Of a DNA stretch of 20,000 nt, positions 941 through 8,157 are shown piece by piece. The notes under the pieces were generated by a model. That model searched no databases and was not told the DNA's origin. It saw only the letters and a list, made by a program, of their open reading frames with translations. The translations under genes were made by a program, and so were the position numbers. The stretch is from IMG/VR virus record IMGVR_UViG_3300012665_000499, one strand, 5' to 3'. How positions within the stretch are numbered: position 1 is the first letter of the stretch; each line of letters starts with the position of its first letter. The stretch comes from an uncultured virus (IMG/VR IMGVR_UViG_3300012665_000499) (Duplodnaviria > Heunggongvirae > Uroviricota > Caudoviricetes).

Positions 941-2086
941 TCATTCTCCTAAGTTAATAGTCACACCGTATGGTGCTTTAAGGTCAGTCGTCAACGCCCA
1001 CATAGTCGGGCAGTCGCTACGCCCCCAGTCGCCTACATACCCATCGCTGAACTGGATGATGGCTTGGGGATGGATGTTCTTCTCACGCAGGTAGTCAAAC
1101 AACACCGCACCATTGGTACCCCCACCCCCCTTGGGCTTGAGGTCTTGGATAGCAAACTGCCCATCCTCGAATGTCTGATGACCTACCACATCGGTGTCCC
1201 AATACACCACATGCACTTTGCTTGGCTTGACATCCTCAATCACTCGAGTAGTCTCCGATGCAAACAGCGTCATCTCATGGCTGCCAAACACCGAGCCTGA
1301 TGTGTCGAACCCGATGACCAACTCGGTCATAGTCATACCCAACATAGTCGGCATGTAAATGTCCTCACTCAGGAACCTACGATTAGGTCTAGCCCACGAT
1401 GATTCATCACGCCCCGCACAGGTCTCTTGGATGAAGTCACGCAACACTTTGCGCCAGTCCACCTTGGGAGAGAGCAGGTCACCGAACGCACCATCCTCAC
1501 CCCCCGAACCATTTGCGCTACGCTTCTTACGCATAATCTCGCCTTGTCGCAGGGCACGACCAATCTCGTTCTCCATCTCTTGCTCGGTAGGTGTGCGCCC
1601 ATCGCCATCCCAGTCATGCTCATCGGTACCTTCCTCACCGCCATCCTCATCCTCTTGCTCGAGGTCGGTATAGATTTGCAGTACTGACCAACCCTTGTAC
1701 TTAGGCTTAGGTTTAATACCAACCTTGGGCATCTTGACAAAGCCCTCACCCGCATCGGTATCGTGCAGTACGCCATTGACAAAGTAGTCAGCAGCCACAT
1801 TCGCAAGTCGAGCGTTTGATTTGTGCAACTCTTTCCATACAGTCAGGTGTCGGTATGCTTTGTGTGTCGCCTCATGCAATACAAGGAAACGCAACTCGGC
1901 ATCGTCTGCCATGTTCTCTTCGATGAACTTGGGGTTGTACATGACATTCCACCCATCGGTACAGGCGGTTGGTACATCCTCAGTCACAGTCACTTTGCCA
2001 CACGCTAGCACCCCTGCAAATACGCAGAACTTTTTGTGCTGCATCACAGCGATGTGGGCTTTCTTGATACGGTCGGCTACATTCAT
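941..2086 (-). CDS. DUF2201-like putative metallopeptidase with C-terminal vWA-like domain
   Basis: TACTDG, HEATH (HExxH), acidic linker, MIDAS-like DTSGS, GGGGT and FSDG. Start at ATG 2086 (MNVADRIKKAH) after GGAG. Confidence 0.9.
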   Translation of the reverse strand: MNVADRIKKAHIAVMQHKKFCVFAGVLACGKVTVTEDVPTACTDGWNVMYNPKFIEENMADDAELRFLVLHEATHKAYRHLTVWKELHKSNARLANVAADYFVNGVLHDTDAGEGFVKMPKVGIKPKPKYKGWSVLQIYTDLEQEDEDGGEEGTDEHDWDGDGRTPTEQEMENEIGRALRQGEIMRKKRSANGSGGEDGAFGDLLSPKVDWRKVLRDFIQETCAGRDESSWARPNRRFLSEDIYMPTMLGMTMTELVIGFDTSGSVFGSHEMTLFASETTRVIEDVKPSKVHVVYWDTDVVGHQTFEDGQFAIQDLKPKGGGGTNGAVLFDYLREKNIHPQAIIQFSDGYVGDWGRSDCPTMWALTTDLKAPYGVTINLGE

Positions 2087-2172
2087 AGTGGTCTCCATGC
2101 GAATAAATCAAAGGCTAAAACGATAACGGCTAAAACATATACCGTTATAAGTATTTGTGTAATGGGTCTCAT
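2083..2172 (-). CDS. 29-aa single-transmembrane microprotein
   Basis: MRPITQILITVYVLAVIVLAFDLFAWRPL*; ATGA overlaps at both ends, GGGGA RBS, one hydrophobic helix. Below the ORF-track cutoff. Confidence 0.7.
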   Translation of the reverse strand: MRPITQILITVYVLAVIVLAFDLFAWRPL

Positions 2173-2312
2173 GATGTCCCCTTCGCTTCGGCTTGTTGCC
2201 TGCGATACACAAAGTCGGGTAACTTGGGCACACCCAGTGCTTTCTGCGGATGCCAAGTTTTATGTAGACGGACGATGGTGCGCCCGTTTGAAGTGCGTTC
2301 AGTAATCAACAT
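2169..2312 (-). CDS. 47-aa basic hypothetical protein
   Basis: MLITERTSNGRTIVRLHKTWHPQKALGVPKLPDFVYRRQQAEAKGTS*; preceded by TAAGGACTTCTATC, the RBS cassette also used by other early genes. Confidence 0.7.
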   Translation of the reverse strand: MLITERTSNGRTIVRLHKTWHPQKALGVPKLPDFVYRRQQAEAKGTS

Positions 2313-2323
2313 GATAGAAGTCC

Positions 2324-3385
2324 TTAGAAGAATTTGCCGAGTTTGGCTGCGGCTGCGGTGAACTTGCGGTTCTTACACGCCATGCCCACCTTGGCTTTGT
2401 TGGTAGCCACGGACATAACGAACAGGCTGTATGCCTCGAACGATTCCACACCCATGCGGTCGGCGTACTCCATCACCGCATCCATAGTCGTCTCGGTCAC
2501 ACGCCCCGCCAACATGAAGGCAAGAATGAACAGCGCACCTGCACCATCAGGCACCTTGGCTTTATCGGGTGACTTAACGATGGTCTCGAACATGGGCAAC
2601 TGGTCAGCGAGATTAACCAACGCATCCATCTGCCGAGCAGCCGCTTCACCTACTGTACCCGCCAATGCAGGGAGGGTCGCCGCACCCAGTACATCACGCT
2701 GACTCACGATGTGACCTGCCTTAGTAAGTGAGCGAAGGGAACAGTACGCCTTGGTGTTGCCAGTCAAGGGATTGAAGATGTAGGGGTTCTTAACCTTGGG
2801 GTCGAGGTCGGTGTAGCAGTCGAATACCTCGGGGGTCTGCTTGCCGAACACAATCACCTCGGGTGCTACGCCATTGTTGGTAGCCCACGGCAGCCATTCC
2901 TCAAAGGTCGGGTTACTTATGTCCACCACAGTCATACGATTGAACGCATGGGCAGGGATGTTGTCACCCACGCCATCGGTGTCGAGGTTGGTAGTGCCGA
3001 ACACAATGCTGCCCTTGGGCAGGGGTACATCCCCAATGCGATGCTCCAAGATTACAGGCAGCAGCATATTCATCACAGGTCGGCTCGCCTTACCCAACTC
3101 ATCGAGCATGAGTACGACAGGCTTTGTTTGGTCACGCCCCACACCGAACCGAGTATTCGGTGCATACGATGTGGTCATGTTGTCTCGGTCGATGACAGGC
3201 ATACCCAAGTCACCGAGGTCGAGGTTGGCTACATCTATGTAGCAGATATGGTAGTCAGGGAGATTCTCACGCATCACCTCAAGGATGCTTGACTTACCGA
3301 TGCCGGGCTGACCACGCAGCAAGATTGTGTTGGTGGTGCCAATTGTGCAGACCATGTTGGCTGCTTGAGAGAGAGTTACATTCAT
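2324..3385 (-). CDS. MoxR/AAA_5-like AAA+ ATPase
   Basis: Walker A GQPGIGKS, Walker B LMLDEL, sensor GTTN, AFNRM arginine-finger region; lies next to a vWA gene. Confidence 0.9.
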   Translation of the reverse strand: MNVTLSQAANMVCTIGTTNTILLRGQPGIGKSSILEVMRENLPDYHICYIDVANLDLGDLGMPVIDRDNMTTSYAPNTRFGVGRDQTKPVVLMLDELGKASRPVMNMLLPVILEHRIGDVPLPKGSIVFGTTNLDTDGVGDNIPAHAFNRMTVVDISNPTFEEWLPWATNNGVAPEVIVFGKQTPEVFDCYTDLDPKVKNPYIFNPLTGNTKAYCSLRSLTKAGHIVSQRDVLGAATLPALAGTVGEAAARQMDALVNLADQLPMFETIVKSPDKAKVPDGAGALFILAFMLAGRVTETTMDAVMEYADRMGVESFEAYSLFVMSVATNKAKVGMACKNRKFTAAAAKLGKFF

Positions 3386-3439
3386 GATAAAAGCCTTGTA
3401 TTAAATATAAAGAAAGAGAAAGTTATAACAGGTATAAGT

Positions 3440-4189
3440 TTAGAGTTGGTCTGTGTGGGTCACCTCCGTTGCTATTGTGTCGTACATGGCGCGTTTGTAT
3501 TCCTTCATGATGCGTGACCACGCACCCTTGGCATCGTCTCGCTCCACCCATATCCATTTGTGTCCTGCAACATTGTCCCACTTGCCCTTCTGCTCGACCT
3601 TGGCTTTCTGCACAACAGCCGACCAATGGTCAGCGTCATCAGGGTCAGTCAGGTCAGGGGTATTCCTAAACCCAGCAATAAAACTCACAGCCTCAAGGGG
3701 AGCCGTTGCGTACAACAAAGGAAACATATCCTTGAATCCCGAGGTCTTGATACCCTCCATGAATTCCTTGCTCTCAGCCTTGTTGATACGCCGTGCTTCA
3801 AAGGTTCGGGGTTTGGTCAGCAGGTTGCCCAACGCATCGAATGTGATGCCATCGTAGTATGCGTACCCATTGCATGTCGTCTGACTTATACCCATTATAA
3901 CTTTGTTGTATATGCTGAGCCGATGCGGGATAAATTTACGGGCTGCGATTCCCAGTTGGGTCTTGGTGGTCATCGAGTTCACCCACCCATTGCAATGCAC
4001 AGTCAGTTTGCCATCGGGGTACACCCTGAAAATATCGCTATGGTGAAACACCACAGCCACATGGTCGCCTCGGTCGGCTACCCTGAATTGGCATTTGCTG
4101 CGTCTGTCTACTGGTGCATCACCTTTGTAGTGCCCCTTTGAGTAGGCATGGATGCGAATGTGTTCTTTGATTTTGTCGTACGAGTTCAT
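3440..4189 (-). CDS. Hypothetical phage protein
   Basis: 249-aa ORF with TAAGGA RBS, co-oriented with neighbours. Confidence 0.85.
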   Translation of the reverse strand: MNSYDKIKEHIRIHAYSKGHYKGDAPVDRRSKCQFRVADRGDHVAVVFHHSDIFRVYPDGKLTVHCNGWVNSMTTKTQLGIAARKFIPHRLSIYNKVIMGISQTTCNGYAYYDGITFDALGNLLTKPRTFEARRINKAESKEFMEGIKTSGFKDMFPLLYATAPLEAVSFIAGFRNTPDLTDPDDADHWSAVVQKAKVEQKGKWDNVAGHKWIWVERDDAKGAWSRIMKEYKRAMYDTIATEVTHTDQL

Positions 4190-4217
4190 GATAGAAATCC
4201 TTAAAAAGTTATACCGG

Positions 4218-4490
4218 TTATAAGTTTGTTGCGTTTTCTGTAAAGTCGGTCTCTTGCAATGGGGGCAACTCCATCGCCTTATTCATCATTGCCCACACAT
4301 CCTTCAAAGACTCCATGTCCTCTGAGCCTGTGCATGGTGAGCCGTACCCAGTCGGCTTGTTGTCCTTGCCGTAACACACTTCCTGTAAGCAGTACCAGTC
4401 TTCACCGCCATTCTCTGACTTGGTATTTACAATGCGGTAGTTCCATGTGAACCCGCCGTCATCATTTAGTTCGTTTAGTTCATCAGTCAT
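4218..4490 (-). CDS. Hypothetical phage protein (WNYRIV motif)
   Basis: 90 aa, GAGGA RBS, operon packing. Confidence 0.8.
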   Translation of the reverse strand: MTDELNELNDDGGFTWNYRIVNTKSENGGEDWYCLQEVCYGKDNKPTGYGSPCTGSEDMESLKDVWAMMNKAMELPPLQETDFTENATNL

Positions 4491-4491
4491 A

Positions 4492-4701
4492 TCATGTCCT
4501 CTTTGGGTTAAGTTGTTTCAACATCTCAGGGTCGGTGAAGAGCATGTAGTTGCTCTTGTTCATAGGTGCAATCGTGTGCTTGACACGCTGCGCCAGTCTC
4601 TCCCCACACTCAGCACAGGTGGGGCGTAGTGCCTTGGCTCTCTGTGGTTCTACCCTTACTGCGTAGCAGCAGGTACAGATTGGTAGGTATCGCTCGTTCA
4701 T
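4492..4701 (-). CDS. Small zinc-ribbon-like protein
   Basis: CTCC...CAEC cysteine pairs, GGAGG RBS, ATGA overlap with the upstream gene. Confidence 0.8.
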   Translation of the reverse strand: MNERYLPICTCCYAVRVEPQRAKALRPTCAECGERLAQRVKHTIAPMNKSNYMLFTDPEMLKQLNPKRT

Positions 4702-4899: not shown

Positions 4900-5193
4900 T
4901 TAGTTCGACTCATACCCAAGGGCGGCTAATACTTCTAGCCGTTTCGCTGCCAAGGTGAACGCTTCCGCTATCGCCCTAGCCAACTCGAGGGGGGTATATC
5001 CTGCGTTTGTACCCCCTGCACCATACGAGAAACTTACTCGTGGTTTGCCTGTGTAGTCAAAGTCCACACCAACTCGGCAAATACCACTGGTCGCCCAATG
5101 TGTGTCCGAGTGATACTGGTAGGTCATCTGTCCCACCACCTTGCCATCTTTGATGTAGGTGTAGTCGTCTGTCTTTTCGTATACATGTGCCAT
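4900..5193 (-). CDS. Hypothetical protein
   Basis: 97 aa, TAAGGA RBS. Confidence 0.75.
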   Translation of the reverse strand: MAHVYEKTDDYTYIKDGKVVGQMTYQYHSDTHWATSGICRVGVDFDYTGKPRVSFSYGAGGTNAGYTPLELARAIAEAFTLAAKRLEVLAALGYESN

Positions 5194-5204
5194 GATAGAA
5201 ATCC

Positions 5205-5420
5205 TTACTTAAAGTCGATTGCGAATTCGTTGCCGTTAAAACTTGCCTCTATGTTGCAGTACAGCATTTGTTTCAGTTGCTCTACCACGCGGTCAATGTC
5301 CCGCGCCTGATACCCATCGTCCCCACGGACAAACAAAGTACCGTTGCAGAAATACGCACAGTCAGCGATGACGGCGTTGAGGTCTTCTAACTTGTCCAAA
5401 ACAATTTTCTCTAGTCCCAT
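5205..5420 (-). CDS. Hypothetical protein, first gene after the long leader
   Basis: Start moved to ATG 5420 (MGLEKIVLDK), with GGAG 7 nt upstream. Confidence 0.7.
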   Translation of the reverse strand: MGLEKIVLDKLEDLNAVIADCAYFCNGTLFVRGDDGYQARDIDRVVEQLKQMLYCNIEASFNGNEFAIDFK

Positions 5421-5439
5421 TTTCATTCTCCGGTTATGG

Positions 5440-5957
5440 AAGTTATACCAGTTATAACTTACCGCAGAGGGCACGGAAATGCCCAATGCGCTAAGCCCTC
5501 TTTTAGTGAGGACTGTCGCCCTGCTATACATAGCAGTGGACTACGATAGGGCTTGTCGTTCACACATATTCCCCCGAGGGGGTTTGCGTTCCTAACACGG
5601 CATCAACGGCGGTCGCTACGCGCCATAATCTCCGTGCATTAGCGGGTCTAGGTCATTACCCTAGATACCCACGCCCAGTTAAGTAGTATCGGTTTGATTT
5701 GCATGATGCTGTAACCACATCATGTCAGGACTACACCTAACGCCTATTCGCCAAGGGAGGGTTCTCATGTCTGCTTATGGGTGTGCCGTGGTAGCCTCGG
5801 TGGGGTCTGGCATAAATGCTACTGCTACTGAGTAGTCATCGACCTTCACCTAATCTACCGCGTGTCCTCTTGTTGTCAGCGCAATTCATCCTATTGGTTT
5901 CTGCATTGTTGCAGCGGCGGTTTCATGGGGGGCTTGAAAGTTATACTGGTATAACTT
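5440..5957 (-). ncRNA. Putative large structured RNA or 5' leader
   Basis: No credible ORF; at least nine local or long-range helices; lies downstream of a near-consensus sigma70 promoter. Confidence 0.5.
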
Positions 5958-5990
5958 ATGGTTAGATATAATCAAACCCCTTGAGTACAG

Positions 5991-6004
5991 ATTGTTAAAG
6001 AGCG
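5991..6004 (-). promoter_or_regulatory. boxA antitermination element
   Basis: Minus strand CGCTCTTTAACAAT matches rrn/lambdoid boxA (YGCTCTTTAACA), about 60 nt after the predicted transcription start. Confidence 0.75.
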
Positions 6005-6069
6005 ATGCCCCCATAGGTGTAGGTGGTAGGCGGTACAGTTCAGAGCGATATCTCAACTGACTAGCCATC

Positions 6070-6098
6070 AGTATAGCAGGTATAGGGGGGCTTGTCAA
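6070..6098 (-). promoter_or_regulatory. Strong sigma70 early promoter
   Basis: TTGACA (6098-6093), 17-bp spacer, TATACT (6075-6070) with extended-10 TG. Confidence 0.85.
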
Positions 6099-6113
6099 GC
6101 CCCTTTTGGAGAG

Positions 6114-6395
6114 TTATACCGGGTATAACTTCTTAGCCTTAGCGATGATTTGGTGAACCCTGATTTCGGATAGGTTGTACGCCTTGGCTACATTGGCACG
6201 GGTTTCGTGCTTCTGCAACACACGCTCCACAATCTCCGCATCTCGTTTGGCTAGGTCGGGTTTCATGTATTCAGGTTTGCGTTTCACCCATGCCATCAGG
6301 GCAGCCGCAGCAGCCATGTGCAGGTCTTTGGATTCGTGGGAGTTGGTGAGCGCGTCCGCGAAAGTGTCAGGTAGTTCAAGTGATAGTTTTTGCAT
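6114..6395 (-). CDS. Small DNA-binding protein (RHH-like N-terminus, Mor/sigma-r4-like HTH C-terminus)
   Basis: 93 aa from ATG 6395; RDAEIV...TRANVAKAYNLSEIRVHQII is HTH-like and MQKLSLELPDTFADAL resembles an RHH strand-helix. Confidence 0.7.
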   Translation of the reverse strand: MQKLSLELPDTFADALTNSHESKDLHMAAAAALMAWVKRKPEYMKPDLAKRDAEIVERVLQKHETRANVAKAYNLSEIRVHQIIAKAKKLYPV

Positions 6396-6443
6396 AGTTA
6401 TACCGGTATAAGTTGAGGGAGTTGTAGTATATATCATATTTCT

Positions 6444-6791
6444 TGTTACGGGTGTTACGAGGGTAAAAAGGGTGCTGTAACGCTGGAGGGCGCATGGATG
6501 CTCATTTGTTACGCTGTTACAGATGTTACAGGGTTTTTGGGGTGTTTCCGGAAAAACACGAATGTATGAACGCCAATCCAAAATATTTCGTGATACCGAC
6601 TATACCTGCGCCCAAAAACCGATATTTGGATTCGAGAGCCAAAAAGCCTGTAACAGCGTAACATACACTAAAAATAAAAAAATATAATATATATACTCTC
6701 TCTAACTCATTGATTTCATTAGCTTTTTTATTTTGGATTTTGCCTTTGCTTTGTTACAGGCAAATTGTAACAGCCTGTAACACCTGTAACA
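6444..6791. repeat. TGTTAC/GTAAC iteron cluster with AT-rich core (origin-like)
   Basis: About 12 copies in both orientations; perfect 16-bp inverted repeat 6507-6522/6648-6663; AT-rich 6661-6745. Confidence 0.65.
6703..6715 (-). promoter_or_regulatory. IHF consensus site
   Basis: AATCAATGAGTTA fits WATCAANNNNTTR and sits in AT-rich DNA. Confidence 0.5.
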
Positions 6792-6987
6792 TATACCGGT
6801 ATAAGTTTGCCGAAAATGATAGTCGTGCCGCGCTGCGATGCCTCGAAGTTATACTGGGTATATGTTTGCCGTGTCTGTCAAGGCGGCGTTGGTTCGGTGG
6901 CTCGACTCTCCCTCTCCCGTTCGAGCCCACGCGCGCACGCTCTCCCGCTCGGTCGTGCTACTATCACCAGCCCCAAAATTGGGGCGC

Positions 6988-7011
6988 AAAAAAACCCCGC
7001 CGAGGCGGGGT
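6988..7011 (-). terminator. Intrinsic terminator
   Basis: Minus strand ACCCCGC-CTCG-GCGGGGT followed by a T run, just after the 7030-7215 gene. Confidence 0.85.
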
Positions 7012-7029
7012 AGTTATACCGGTATAGGT

Positions 7030-7215
7030 TTATGCGGTTCGTTCCGCGATTTCTTCCAAAATTATTTCGGCCCAAATTTCAGCGGCCATCAGGGTATTGC
7101 AGGCTTCAACTTCGGCCGTGGTGGCTTCCATCAAAATTTCGGCCAATTCATCGATGTTCAAAATTTGGCCATGTTGGCACAATCCATCGATATCGCATTT
7201 TGCTACAAAGTACAT
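7030..7215 (-). CDS. Small acidic hypothetical protein
   Basis: 61 aa, AAGGAG RBS, followed by a terminator. Confidence 0.75.
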   Translation of the reverse strand: MYFVAKCDIDGLCQHGQILNIDELAEILMEATTAEVEACNTLMAAEIWAEIILEEIAERTA

Positions 7216-7236
7216 TTTAATTTCTCCTTTAGATTT

Positions 7237-7265
7237 AACCCTAGGCGTTTCCGCCTAGGGTTTTT
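7237..7265. terminator. GC hairpin between two early genes (GAAA loop on minus strand; terminator-like on plus strand)
   Basis: AACCCTAGGCG-TTTC-CGCCTAGGGTT followed by Ts on the plus strand. Confidence 0.55.
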
Positions 7266-7269
7266 GGTT

Positions 7270-7845
7270 TTACTTCGCTTCGGTAAACTTAGGGTTTACT
7301 TCGACAATCAAATCCAACAAGGCCGCGGCCGTTTCGTTTTTCTGCAAAACCCGTGCGATGGCCAGGGTTTTAATCAACGCGCTTTCCAGCGTTTCGATTG
7401 TCGTGGTTTTCGCGCTGGCCTTTTCTACCGCTACGCCATCGGCTTCGGCCGCGGCCTTTTCCGCGGCCTTGATTTTGCGCGCCATCGGGTCAAAGGCTTT
7501 TCCCTCTTCGTAGCAAAGCCAGTAACTAGATGCGTACATTGTGGCCGTGTTTTTCTTCATCAAGCCATCGGCCGCAAATCCCGCGAACATATCCGCAATG
7601 TCGCGCTTGGCTTGATTATTCACCGCGGTACCGGCCAAGAATACGGCCATTTTGGTTTTCTGCGCGGCACGCATAGAATCCATCACCATTTGCACGCCAT
7701 CGTTGCGCGCTTGAACCGCATCGGCCGCGGCTTTGTCCAAGCCTTGGATTTTGTCCGCCATGGTTGACCATACTTTGCCCAATACCGCGGGAGAAAAGGT
7801 AGCGGGAGACAATGCGCCAGTGGCGCTTTCATTAAACGATGTCAT
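7270..7845 (-). CDS. Ala/Lys-rich hypothetical protein, probably the first early gene
   Basis: 191 aa, GGAG RBS, own promoter upstream. Confidence 0.8.
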   Translation of the reverse strand: MTSFNESATGALSPATFSPAVLGKVWSTMADKIQGLDKAAADAVQARNDGVQMVMDSMRAAQKTKMAVFLAGTAVNNQAKRDIADMFAGFAADGLMKKNTATMYASSYWLCYEEGKAFDPMARKIKAAEKAAAEADGVAVEKASAKTTTIETLESALIKTLAIARVLQKNETAAALLDLIVEVNPKFTEAK

Positions 7846-7895
7846 AAGATACTCCAGTTTATCGGGTCATTGAAATAATGCTTGCCGATGACTGA

Positions 7896-7924: not shown

Positions 7925-8157
7925 GCATTTTATACCGGTATAACTTACCCCACCCCGCCCCCACCAAGCCTTTGTGGCTATGGGACTCCGCCCGTCCCGC
8001 TACGCTGGGCGCGACATTAACGAACACAACCACAATAAAAAGTATAGCTCCTATACCCCCACCCCCCTCAATACAGAGACCCCCCGGGTACCAAAATAAA
8101 ACACACCTCGAAAAAAATACTATACAATCCGCCCAACTTAGGCTGCACAACTTCGCC

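What the first reader, a model, noticed from the sequence alone, without database searches (positions are those of the whole stretch)
5440..5957. ~500-nt ORF-free, densely structured RNA at the head of the early operon
Seen (plus-strand coordinates): GGGCA/TGCCC 5469-5484 nested in CGCA/TGCG; AAGCCCT 5493/AGGGCTT 5548 enclosing CTGCTA/TAGCAG 5521-5536; C5/G5 5571-5582; long-range CACGGCA 5596/TGCCGTG 5784 enclosing hairpins 5644-5670 and CATGATG/CATCATG 5702-5724; nested GGTAG/CTACC, GGTG/CACC and GGTC/GACC at 5790-5859; CTGCA/TGCAG 5901-5914. The two flanking palindromes (5440, 5938) have mutually complementary centres (CCAG/CTGG) and could close the whole domain. The rest of the arm is tightly packed with genes. 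Inference: a multi-domain ncRNA made from the strongest promoter, possibly a protein-independent antiterminator (put-like), an anti-defence decoy or a processed large phage RNA. I cannot assign it to a known family.
Basis: partly seen in the sequence, partly recalled or inferred. Interest (0 to 1): 0.8.

Follow-up and report, generated by a model that had tools for sequence, protein, structure and literature searches.

The report
Conserved folded leader RNA with boxA
The gene-free stretch is a real, conserved, heavily folded untranslated RNA that opens the early genes of an uncultured freshwater phage and its many relatives, sits behind a host-type promoter and the bacterial ribosomal-RNA "boxA" signal, and matches no described RNA family.

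Summary
It is the untranslated leader of the leftward early operon, read on the MINUS strand. A near-consensus sigma-70 promoter (TTGACA-17-TATACT, 6098-6070) is followed about 60 nt later by an exact rrn-type boxA (6003-5993).

Homologous leaders occur in 3 close relatives and at least 45 more IMG/VR contigs. Seven hairpins covary strongly there; the central block has 10 of 15 pairs changed on both sides in 37 distinct sequences, against at most 5 in slid controls. About 95 G-U cells in that block fix the strand. No Rfam family matches the window or 10 relatives.

The palindromes are probably operators, with 10 copies in the window and a different sequence in each phage.

Most likely this is a cis-acting, Nus-factor (boxA) antitermination or anti-Rho leader. 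The role of its large conserved RNA domain is unresolved. Transcription has not been shown.

The parts
6070..6098 (-). Sigma-70-type promoter: -35 TTGACA (6098-6093), 17-nt spacer with TG, -10 TATACT (6075-6070). The inferred start is near 6063.
   Evidence: scores it 11 of 12. The motif is conserved in L004, L005 and L006. TTGACA-N16-18-TAnA[AC]T is found upstream in 26 of 35 distinct wider relatives. The start site is inferred, not measured.
6037..6058 (-). H1, the 5' hairpin of the leader (AGUUGAGA-UAUCGC-UCUGAACU).
   Evidence: 6 of 8 pairs change on both sides and 91.6% of cells are paired in 15 sequences; slid controls give 0-3. The MAFFT alignment of 12 sequences agrees.
6007..6031 (-). 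H2, a hairpin with a C/A/U-rich G-free loop (CCUACCACCUACACCUAU) that ends 3 nt before boxA.
   Evidence: Pairs were counted on the four close relatives, where one pair changes on both sides (helix 3). An equivalent hairpin was seen by eye in 11 leaders. Its register differs between MAFFT rows, so no family-wide count was made.
5993..6003 (-). boxA, GCUCUUUAACA, an exact match to the consensus GYTCTTTAANA.
   Evidence: It is the only exact match in the 20-kb window. The consensus comes from passages of PMC5725501. It is invariant in the 4 close relatives. It is perfect in 25 and within one mismatch in 32 of 35 distinct wider relatives, always between the promoter and the domain.
5960..5973 (-). 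Small hairpin after boxA (GGUUA-NNNN-UAACC type; imperfect in the window).
   Evidence: Only 76.8% of cells are paired and 1 of 5 pairs changes on both sides in 12 sequences. Support is weak and limited to a subgroup.
5939..5957 (.). O2, a copy of the phage-specific palindrome AAGTTATAC-N-GTATAACTT, at about +106 to +125 of the transcript.
   Evidence: Relatives carry a different palindrome at the same place.
5901..5922 (-). Conserved strand AACCGCCGCUG plus hairpin P-a (5901-5914), which marks the start of the conserved domain.
   Evidence: The stretch is 100% identical in the 4 close relatives. The anchor is found in 35 of 35 distinct wider relatives. A hairpin forms at the same position in 39 of 42 sequences, with at least 12 different stems (each folded singly).
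5761..5886 (-).
   Evidence: It is absent from L005/L006 and 100% identical in L004. One RNA-library contig replaces it with 52 other letters and one DNA contig skips it. No covariation test was possible.
5670..5766 (-). Central conserved block: CCUCCCU..GAAUAGGCGU, hairpin P-b (5724-5741), hairpin P-c (5702-5724) and the conserved strand ..ACCGAUACUACUUAACUGGG.
   Evidence: Model R1 scores 100.9 bits here and matches 38 of 49 sources, with none in 7 control loci. On 37 distinct sequences 95.0% of cells are paired, 10 of 15 pairs change on both sides (120 cells), and the covariation score is 0.621 against at most 0.117 when slid, with 0 of 500 shuffles as high. The MAFFT-only alignment gives 0.618.
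5644..5670 (-). P-d hairpin (GGGUAUCUAGG-GUAAUGA-CCUAGACCC).
   Evidence: It is predicted in single and paired folds. Two outer pairs change on both sides among the four close relatives (helix 8). It was not tested family-wide.
5593..5648 (-). V3, an optional hairpin module (CACGG..GGCG-CGUAGCGAC-CGCC..CCGUG).
   Evidence: It is absent from L005/L006. The differences between the window and L004 are compensatory or G-U on the minus strand. Variants C>T at 5610 and G>A at 5622 sit together in the contigs of two runs and keep the pair.
5561..5590 (-). C5/G5 hairpin inside an outer 4-bp stem (ACGC..GUGU).
   Evidence: Two outer pairs change on both sides (helix 10). In L005 the inner stem CCCCC/GGGGG becomes CCGCA/UGCGG (read by eye). 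The A>G variant at 5562 turns a G-U pair into G-C.
5441..5558 (-). 3' block: conserved strand CGACAAGCCCUAUCGUAG, then hairpins P-g (5521-5536), P-h (5495-5513) and P-i (5463-5490, extended to 5459-5494).
   Evidence: Model R2 scores 101.9 bits here and gives 16 matches. 16 of 22 pairs change on both sides, 91.7% of cells are paired, and the score is 0.349 against at most 0.107 when slid.
5441..5460 (.). O1, a second palindrome copy, 9 nt upstream of the Shine-Dalgarno sequence. It is complementary to O2 (about 20 bp with one bulge).
   Evidence: all four MFE folds pair O2 with O1. An exact long-range complement of 12 nt or more is found in only 10 of 42 family members.
5424..5431 (-). Shine-Dalgarno GGAGA (5431-5427) and the ATG (5426-5424) of the first early gene (73 aa, 5205-5426).
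   Evidence: An SD-led ORF follows the RNA in 40 of 46 family sequences.
6112..6131 (.). O3, a palindrome copy centred about 58 bp upstream of the inferred start. It overlaps the stop codon of the upstream 93-aa HTH gene (6117-6395, minus).

Best explanation
Window 6063 to 5427, read on the minus strand, is the roughly 640-nt untranslated leader of the phage's leftward early operon.

Proposed sequence of events:
1. Host sigma-70 RNA polymerase starts at a near-consensus promoter.
2. It transcribes two 5' hairpins and then an exact rrn/nut-type boxA.
3. It continues without any terminator through a conserved multi-hairpin RNA domain into the first early gene. The core of that domain is about 300 nt; with two optional modules it is about 480 nt here.

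Proposed mechanism: boxA recruits NusB-NusE(S10) and the other Nus factors, as in rRNA operons and lambda nut sites. Polymerase then becomes resistant to Rho, and perhaps to other terminators, across the long untranslated RNA and on into the early genes. The large conserved domain folds co-transcriptionally as part of this leader. What it adds is unresolved; it may strengthen the modified polymerase complex, protect the message, or gate the first gene.

Shown here: the RNA structure and its conservation, the strand, the conservation of promoter and boxA, and continuity with the operon.
Inferred: the transcription start, Nus recruitment, antitermination, and any role of the large domain.
For: Promoter and boxA:
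- The promoter scores 11 of 12 and is conserved in the close relatives and in 26 of 35 distinct wider relatives.
- boxA is the only exact hit in 20 kb, equals the published consensus (passages of PMC5725501), and is invariant in the 4 close relatives.
- It is perfect in 25 and within one mismatch in 32 of 35 wider relatives, always between the promoter and the domain.

Structure:
- Central block: 10 of 15 pairs changed on both sides, 120 cells, 0 of 500 shuffles as high, slid controls at most 5 pairs.
- 3' block: 16 of 22 pairs.
- H1: 6 of 8 pairs.
- P-a forms in 39 of 42 sequences with at least 12 different stems.
- MAFFT-only alignments agree.

Strand:
- There are about 95 G-U cells in the central block.
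- In helices predicted on both strands there are 7 G-U against 1 A-C.
- Alifold energy is -94.85 for the minus strand against -81.20 for the plus strand.

Constraint:
- The aligned domain is 95.8% identical between the window and L004, and 94.6% between L005 and L006.
- Third codon positions of the adjacent gene are only 75.3% and 86.5% identical.
- No ORF is conserved.

Leader status:
- No minus-strand terminator-like site lies in 5100-6900, and none is found in 38 of 46 family leaders.
- An SD-led ORF follows in 40 of 46.

Mechanistic precedent: rrn nut-like elements and anti-Rho activity are described in passages of PMC8632103.
Against: - No transcript has been observed. A 9.5-kb contig of a variant lies in one metatranscriptome library, but contigs cannot show transcription, ends or strand, and DNA may be present in that library.
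- The host is unknown, so whether its Nus factors read this boxA is an inference from a gamma-proteobacterial consensus.
- boxA is degenerate or absent in 10 of 35 wider relatives (7 with one mismatch, 3 with none found).
- boxA alone would not need about 300 conserved structured nucleotides, so the main function of the domain is unexplained.
- The published boxA in the suhB leader represses rather than antiterminates.
- The CM-derived alignments lean towards the model structure.
- The counts of promoter-like and terminator-like sites in the region are no higher than in shuffles (3 against 2.6).
Confidence: 0.5

Rival explanations
1. The leader is the precursor of a stable, trans-acting large non-coding RNA. 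The domain would be cut out, for instance at the O2:O1 duplex by RNase III. It would then act on a host or defence target at the start of infection, as a decoy, a sponge, or a mimic of an rRNA precursor. boxA would serve, as in rRNA operons, to protect and chaperone a long untranslated RNA.
For: - Conservation and covariation are much stronger than a simple leader needs.
- The layout is rrn-like: promoter, hairpins, boxA, then structured RNA.
- In this phage an O2:O1 duplex of about 20 bp closes the domain in all four MFE folds. This resembles the leader-trailer helix described in passages of PMC8632103.
- Invariant loops and strands suggest binding partners.
Against: - The bracketing complement is present in only 10 of 42 members.
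- No terminator or conserved processing stem delimits the RNA, and it runs straight into an SD-led ORF in 40 of 46 sequences.
- The palindromes are dispersed operator-like sites.
- No target is known and there are no expression data.
Confidence: 0.22
2. The domain is a cis-regulatory sensor, riboswitch-like or protein-binding. It would gate translation or elongation into the first early gene through alternative pairings near its 3' end.
For: - The 3' end of the domain lies 10-40 nt from the SD in the members inspected.
- Two mutually exclusive helices near the 3' end both vary compensatorily. One is the extension of P-i (CUAGCG:CGAUAG type; C-G 5, U-A 3). The other is a terminal hairpin (GAUAGC/GCUAUC, GGUAGC/GCUACC, GAUGG/CCAUC, GGUGAG/CUCACC; read by eye).
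- A conserved pyrimidine strand CUCCCU could pair with the SD (inference only).
Against: - No known riboswitch model matches.
- The terminal hairpin is missing in the window itself.
- The first gene is variable or replaced in relatives, which fits poorly with a dedicated sensor.
- The alternative-pairing reading was not tested statistically.
Confidence: 0.15
3. The signal is at DNA level only. The region would be operator or origin DNA, or the functional RNA would be the plus strand (an antisense RNA).
For: - The palindromes behave like operators. There are 10 copies in the window, the half-sites are conserved while the centres vary, and the sequence changes from phage to phage.
- The plus strand folds slightly better in the single-sequence test (z -2.89 against -2.50).
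Against: - The covarying helices lie between the palindromes and include many G-U pairs that would be A-C mismatches on the plus strand.
- The promoter and boxA are on the minus strand and conserved.
- The -10-like TATAAT at 5968-5973 on the plus strand is not conserved in relatives.
- The iteron-like TGTTAC array lies elsewhere, at 6440-6800.
Confidence: 0.05

Closest known systems
Bacterial rrn operon leader: nut-like boxB-boxA-boxC element, the rrn antitermination complex (NusA/B/E/G, SuhB, S4) and the leader-trailer helix cut by RNase III
   Same: - A strong host-type promoter.
- Hairpins upstream of an exact boxA, which is the rrn order (hairpin then boxA).
- A long untranslated, highly structured RNA downstream.
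- In this phage, complementary sequences bracket the structured RNA.
Sources: passages of PMC8632103; title and abstract of PMC10250234 in the listing.
   Different: - The RNA is not rRNA and matches no Rfam model.
- It is followed directly by protein genes.
- No boxC was identified.
- The bracket is built from operator-like palindromes and is absent in 32 of 42 relatives.
Lambda-type nut sites (boxA + boxB) with N protein; the lambda pL-nutL-N leader
   Same: boxA lies shortly after an early promoter at the head of an early operon. A phage-specific palindrome or hairpin lies next to boxA in nearly all members. Nus factors are implied.
   Different: - There is no conserved 5-bp, pentaloop boxB.
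- The palindrome centres, which would be the loops, vary between copies while the half-sites are conserved. That pattern is typical of DNA operators.
- No arginine-rich N-like protein is encoded among the first five early ORFs.
- The leader carries about 300-480 nt of extra conserved structure.
The lambda details are recalled, apart from the passages seen.
HK022 put RNAs, and other RNA-only processive antiterminators such as EAR (named in PMC8632103)
   Same: A cis-acting folded RNA lies just downstream of an early phage promoter. Such an RNA could modify the polymerase that makes it.
   Different: put is about 70 nt with two stem-loops and needs no boxA (recalled). This element is several times larger, has a different architecture, and is boxA-linked.
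Large structured RNAs associated with phages or prophages in Rfam (GOLLD, ROOL and similar)
   Same: These are large, multi-helix, phage-borne RNAs of unknown function that were found by comparative analysis.
   Different: No Rfam model reaches its gathering score on the window or on 10 related loci. In the 1.2 kb around the finding, nothing is better than E = 1.6. Those RNAs are not operon leaders behind boxA (recalled).
boxA-led structured leaders noted earlier in this scan in other phage lineages (e1-151558, e1-156313, e1-5874228, e1-6133293, e1-5826727, e1-198511, e1-6046902, e1-5851805)
   Same: They share the same theme: host-type early promoter, rrn-type boxA, then a long untranslated folded RNA at the head of the early genes.
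   Different: No sequence likeness to this element was found. They are unchecked AI notes and were used only as leads.

Membership tests
Any Rfam 15 family | Covariance-model score at or above the family's gathering threshold | tested here: not met
   There are 0 matches on the whole window and 0 on 10 related loci totalling 103 kb. With permissive filters on 5300-6500, the three hits have E of 1.6-9 and lie far below their gathering scores.
rrn-type nut-like leader (boxA-dependent antitermination) | boxA matching the consensus GYTCTTTAANA on the transcribed strand, downstream of a promoter | tested here: met
   There is an exact match at 6003-5993 on the minus strand, about 60 nt after the inferred start. 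It is conserved in relatives.
rrn-type nut-like leader (boxA-dependent antitermination) | Hairpin (boxB) upstream of boxA and a linear boxC downstream | tested here: inconclusive
   Hairpins H1 and H2 precede boxA. L004 and L038 carry an extra hairpin directly before boxA. No boxC reference was at hand, so boxC was not tested.
rrn-type nut-like leader (boxA-dependent antitermination) | Leader-trailer helix bracketing the structured RNA | tested here: inconclusive
   O2:O1 can form about 20 bp here. Only 10 of 42 members have an exact complement of 12 nt or more.
rrn-type nut-like leader (boxA-dependent antitermination) | Binding of NusB-NusE and read-through of Rho-dependent termination | not testable with these tools
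   This needs biochemistry or reporter assays.
Lambda-type nut site | boxB hairpin with a conserved loop a few nt after boxA, and a cognate N protein with an arginine-rich motif | tested here: not met
   The small hairpin after boxA is only 76.8% paired and limited to a subgroup. The palindrome centres vary between copies. None of the five first early ORFs has an arginine-rich N terminus. Pfam and PHROGs give no N-like hit.
HK022 put-type RNA antiterminator | About 70 nt, two stem-loops, acts without boxA or Nus factors | tested here: not met
   The size and architecture differ, and an exact boxA is present. The put features are recalled. No put model was compared.
Protein-coding gene or string of small ORFs | An ORF conserved in frame among homologues | tested here: not met
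   The longest ORFs are 29-52 aa, in different frames and places in the four close homologues. The 11-codon ORF at the domain start loses its stop in L006 and its ATG in wider relatives. The indel lengths are not multiples of three.

The most novel reading that the evidence does not exclude
This would be a new class of large phage non-coding RNA built as a miniature rRNA operon. A consensus host promoter and rrn boxA drive a conserved 300-700-nt RNA as the very first product of infection. That RNA would act beyond its own transcript. It might capture the host rRNA antitermination and ribosome-assembly machinery (Nus factors, SuhB, S4) for phage transcription, or disarm a host defence. The class is widespread in uncultured freshwater phages, and the scan's earlier notes describe parallel cases in several unrelated phage lineages.
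Probability: 0.2. Interest if true: 0.85.

Novelty: new variant of a known kind. Interest (0 to 1): 0.68.

Why it matters
boxA-based antitermination is textbook for rRNA operons and for lambda N. A large, strongly covarying RNA attached to boxA at the head of phage early operons is not described in Rfam. It was also not found in the two literature searches made here.

The family is sizeable. One strict motif finds 40 IMG/VR contigs; the window's own subgroup and other ATPase relatives add more. It is also diverse enough for structure determination.

If the domain helps polymerase resist termination, it would be a new RNA-based antitermination device, larger than put or EAR. If it acts in trans, it would be a new phage counter-host RNA.

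Either way it gives a testable handle on how uncultured phages take over host transcription in the first minutes of infection. It also fits a recurring pattern that this scan has noted in other phage lineages.

Tried and rejected
- DNA searches against GenBank phages found nothing, for the window region and for the L036 homologue.
- Two pattern scans of genome contigs found nothing, so no prophage copy or host was identified.
- The metagenome scan with the HTH protein alignment gave only 3 loci, identical to L005 or L006.
- Relatives of the 73-aa first gene (L008-L012) have no leader, no boxA and no model hits.
- The window's own assembly is not held.
- tRNA/tmRNA search: none.
- Reading the region as small ORFs is rejected.
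- Plus-strand promoters at O2 are rejected. TATAAT at 5968-5973 is not conserved in relatives, and the scan's TTGAAA-17-TATGGT is only 9 of 12.
- A pseudoknot between the P-b loop and the ACUAC strand is rejected. The strand varies (ACUAC, AGUGC, ACUGC, CGUAC) while the loop stays constant, so there is no covariation (by eye).
- Centre complementarity of O1 and O2 (CCAG/CTGG here, TCAA/TTGA in L005, a G-U in L006) was considered as evidence for selected RNA pairing. It rests on two or three events with a 50% chance each, and other copies carry the same variants, so it is not significant.
- Sequencing runs: 20 of 24 listed runs hold part of the stretch, and 7 hold half or more of its words. Only contigs could be laid, so no start, end, strand or level of an RNA could be read. 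Parts without cover in those runs are not evidence.
- Host inference from TerL and the ATPase gave only distant hits: 42% to HTVC023P-type pelagiphages and about 26% to N4-like phage ATPases.
Full report
**What is there.** Window 5427-6116 is 690 nt without a credible gene. It lies between a 93-aa helix-turn-helix gene (6395-6117, minus strand; weak KorA and sigma-70 region 4 matches) and the first gene of a leftward operon of small early genes. That first gene starts at ATG 5426 with SD GGAGA. The right arm encodes terminase, portal and capsid, so this is a phage. The 477 nt between the two flanking palindromes fold better than dinucleotide shuffles on both strands: z -2.50 for minus and -2.89 for plus, with 0 of 100 shuffles as good in each case. 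Rfam has no match at gathering scores on the window. With permissive filters around the finding, nothing is better than E = 1.6. There is no tRNA or tmRNA.

**Transcription context.** On the minus strand there is a TTGACA-17-TATACT promoter with a TG extension (6098-6070), scoring 11 of 12 and the best in 5100-6900. The number of promoter-like sites in that region is no higher than in shuffles (3 against 2.6), so the argument rests on this site's quality and conservation, not on the count. About 60 nt after the inferred start lies GCUCUUUAACA (6003-5993). This is the only exact match in the window to the boxA consensus GYTCTTTAANA, which was derived from E. coli rrn and suhB boxA (passages of PMC5725501). 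No terminator-like site lies on the minus strand between the promoter and the early genes.

**Close relatives.** Three distinct relatives were found through the flanking proteins and conserved DNA words: L004 (with L007 from the same sample), L005 and L006, which is G001. The metagenome scan returned only copies of L005 and L006. The promoter and boxA are conserved in all of them. The aligned columns of the domain are 95.8% identical between the window and L004, and 94.6% between L005 and L006. Third codon positions of the adjacent HTH gene are only 75.3% and 86.5% identical. No ORF is conserved. Indels remove or add whole hairpins: a 15-nt hairpin before boxA in L004, the 126-nt module 5761-5886, and the 56-nt module 5593-5648. 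On these four sequences, 76 local pairs are 98.0% paired and 10 change on both sides, against 0-1 in slid controls. That structure was derived from the same sequences, which inflates the contrast.

**The wider family.** Searching with the early-operon ATPase (2324-3385) brought 14 loci, 10 of them from more distant phages with 67-76% identity. Eight of these held a long ORF-free leader on the same strand. Each has a TTGACA promoter, a boxA or boxA-like element, and recognisable blocks of the domain. A strict motif taken from them (24 positions, 19 specified) finds 40 IMG/VR contigs, 35 of them distinct. Among the 35:
- boxA is perfect in 25, within one mismatch in 7 more, and not found in 3.
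- A TTGACA-N16-18-TAnA[AC]T promoter is found in 26.
- The strand AACCGCCGCUG is found in all 35.

No Rfam family reaches threshold on 10 of these loci. Neither the window's region nor L036's has a blastn match in 50,697 GenBank phage records.

**Structure tests on the family.**

| Element | Alignment | Sequences | Cells paired | Pairs changed on both sides | Covariation score | Best slid control |
|---|---|---|---|---|---|---|
| Central block (window 5670-5766) | MAFFT | 12 | 97.2% | 8 of 15 | 0.618 | at most 0.133 |
| Central block | model R1 | 37 distinct | 95.0% | 10 of 15 (120 cells) | 0.621 | at most 0.117 |
| 3' block (window 5441-5558) | model R2 | 16 | 91.7% | 16 of 22 | 0.349 | at most 0.107 |
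| 5' hairpin H1 | model R3 | 15 | 91.6% | 6 of 8 | 0.533 | at most 0.162 |

- For the central block in R1, 0 of 500 shuffles reach the observed score. Several pairs show four Watson-Crick types.
- R1 matched 38 of 49 sources. It missed 4 motif-bearing loci (L046, L049, L056, L063) and all 7 control loci.
- The MAFFT alignment of 12 sequences agrees for H1.
- Hairpin P-a forms at the same position in 39 of 42 sequences folded singly, with at least 12 different stems.
- Model-fitted alignments lean towards the model, but the MAFFT-only counts give the same picture.

**Strand.** Four lines of evidence point to the minus strand:
- The promoter and boxA are on the window's minus strand.
- RNAalifold energy favours it, -94.85 against -81.20 kcal/mol.
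- In helices predicted whichever strand is folded, there are 7 G-U cells against 1 A-C.
- The central block has about 95 G-U cells in covariation-supported helices, and these would be A-C mismatches on the plus strand.

**Leader status.** In 38 of 46 family sequences there is no terminator-like site between the promoter region and the first ORF, and an SD-led ORF follows in 40 of 46. That set includes four pairs of near-duplicates, and six sequences are cut before an ORF.

**What fell.**
The local hairpin covaries (C-G to U-A), whereas the long-range pairing is lost in L005/L006 and in wider relatives.
- CACGGCA/TGCCGTG joins two optional modules. It is broken in L004, where the local stem is kept instead through G-U and a double change.
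- The two flanking palindromes do pair in all four MFE folds. However, they are 2 of 10 copies of one motif in the window, at 3421, 4207, 5441, 5939, 6112, 6396, 6789, 6847, 7012 and 7928.
- Relatives carry a different palindrome at the same places. The half-sites are conserved while the centres vary. Only 10 of 42 family members have a long-range complement of 12 nt or more.
- I therefore read the palindromes as DNA operators of a phage-specific regulator. The rRNA-like leader-trailer helix becomes a possibility in this phage rather than a family feature.
- An RNA role for the palindromes, as a boxB-like hairpin, is not excluded. One copy sits next to boxA in nearly all members.

**Expression.** Of 24 listed public runs, 20 hold part of the stretch, and 7 hold half or more of its words. 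In one metatranscriptome library, a 9.5-kb contig of a variant spans the leader, with the V1 module replaced by 52 other letters. This does not show transcription. The variants seen in those contigs fall in loops or joining strands, or are compensatory: 5610 with 5622, and 5562 turning a G-U pair into G-C.

**Mechanism.** The best-supported reading is a cis-acting leader that recruits the Nus factors through boxA. Polymerase would then become Rho-resistant over a long untranslated RNA and into the early genes, as in rrn operons and lambda (passages of PMC8632103). Recruitment and antitermination are inferred. boxA alone does not explain about 300 conserved, covarying nucleotides, so the domain must add something. 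Three options remain:
- It is an RNA co-factor of the modified polymerase, like put but boxA-linked.
- It is a stable RNA released for a trans function.
- It is a sensor that gates the first gene.

I rank these 0.50, 0.22 and 0.15, with 0.05 for DNA-only or plus-strand readings and the remainder unassigned.

**Relation to earlier notes of this scan.** A word search returned eight notes on boxA-led structured leaders in other phage lineages. None is similar in sequence to this one. They are unchecked leads and were not used as evidence. They do suggest that the layout recurs.

**Limits.**
- The host is unknown. The closest TerL is 42% identical, to HTVC023P-type pelagiphages.
- No full-length structural model or tertiary contacts were established.
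- The H2 hairpin and the region between P-c and the 3' block were not tested family-wide.
- The statement that the RNA is undescribed rests on Rfam and two literature searches.
- Supplements of the cited papers were not consulted.

Noticed in passing
window 3421-3441, 4207-4227, 5441-5460, 5939-5957, 6112-6131, 6396-6414, 6789-6806, 6847-6866, 7012-7029, 7928-7945: There are ten copies of the palindrome AAGTTATAC-N2-5-GTATAACTT, mostly 0-35 nt upstream of gene starts on both arms. L005/L006 carry TTATAT-N-ATATAA versions at the same places. The 93-aa HTH protein is almost identical in its HTH region in all four phages, so it is probably not the specificity determinant.
   Followed up: partly
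window 6792-7885: This stretch is not homologous between the window and L005/L006, and part of it differs in L004. It holds a minus-strand pair of genes, 7270-7845 (191 aa) and 7030-7215 (61 aa). Both have good SD sequences and no Pfam hit, and the pair is flanked by palindrome copies. It is a candidate immunity or specificity module. The 309-aa plus-strand ORF at 6838-7767 is probably spurious.
   Followed up: partly
window 6440-6800: There are about a dozen TGTTAC/GTAACA repeats around an AT-rich stretch at 6670-6745. Similar GTAACA repeats lie directly upstream of the early promoter in L034 and L036. This could be a replication origin or a regulator-binding array.
   Followed up: no
L034 about 3676-3702; L039 about 3437-3466: The H2-type hairpin, with a loop like CCUACCACCUAC...UAU closed by G-C pairs, normally sits just before boxA. 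In L034 and L039 it recurs as an insertion inside the domain (blastn hits; sequences). It behaves like a movable RNA module.
   Followed up: no
L007 89-292; window 5193-5417: The first gene after the leader is a variable slot. The L004/L007 phage has an extra 204 bp with a small ORF between O1 and the 73-aa gene. The contigs of two runs replace the 73-aa gene with 226 other letters.
   Followed up: partly
window 941-3385 (minus): The early operon carries a MoxR/AAA-type ATPase (353 aa) followed by a protein with a DUF2201 metallopeptidase-like domain and a VWA-like domain (385 aa). The nearest cultured relatives of the ATPase are in N4-like phages, at about 26% identity.
   Followed up: no
window 6085-6107 and 6984-7011: A G+C-rich hairpin overlaps the -35 of the early promoter. 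It covaries in L004, has a T-run only on the plus strand in the window, and has none in L005/L006. A second hairpin, AAAAAAACCCCGCC-GAG-GCGGGGT at 6984-7011, looks like a terminator closing the 7845-7030 gene pair.
   Followed up: no
window 4492-4701 (minus): A 69-aa basic early protein has two CxxC pairs and is zinc-ribbon-like. It is the only nucleic-acid-binding-looking product among the first five early ORFs. It has no family hit.
   Followed up: no
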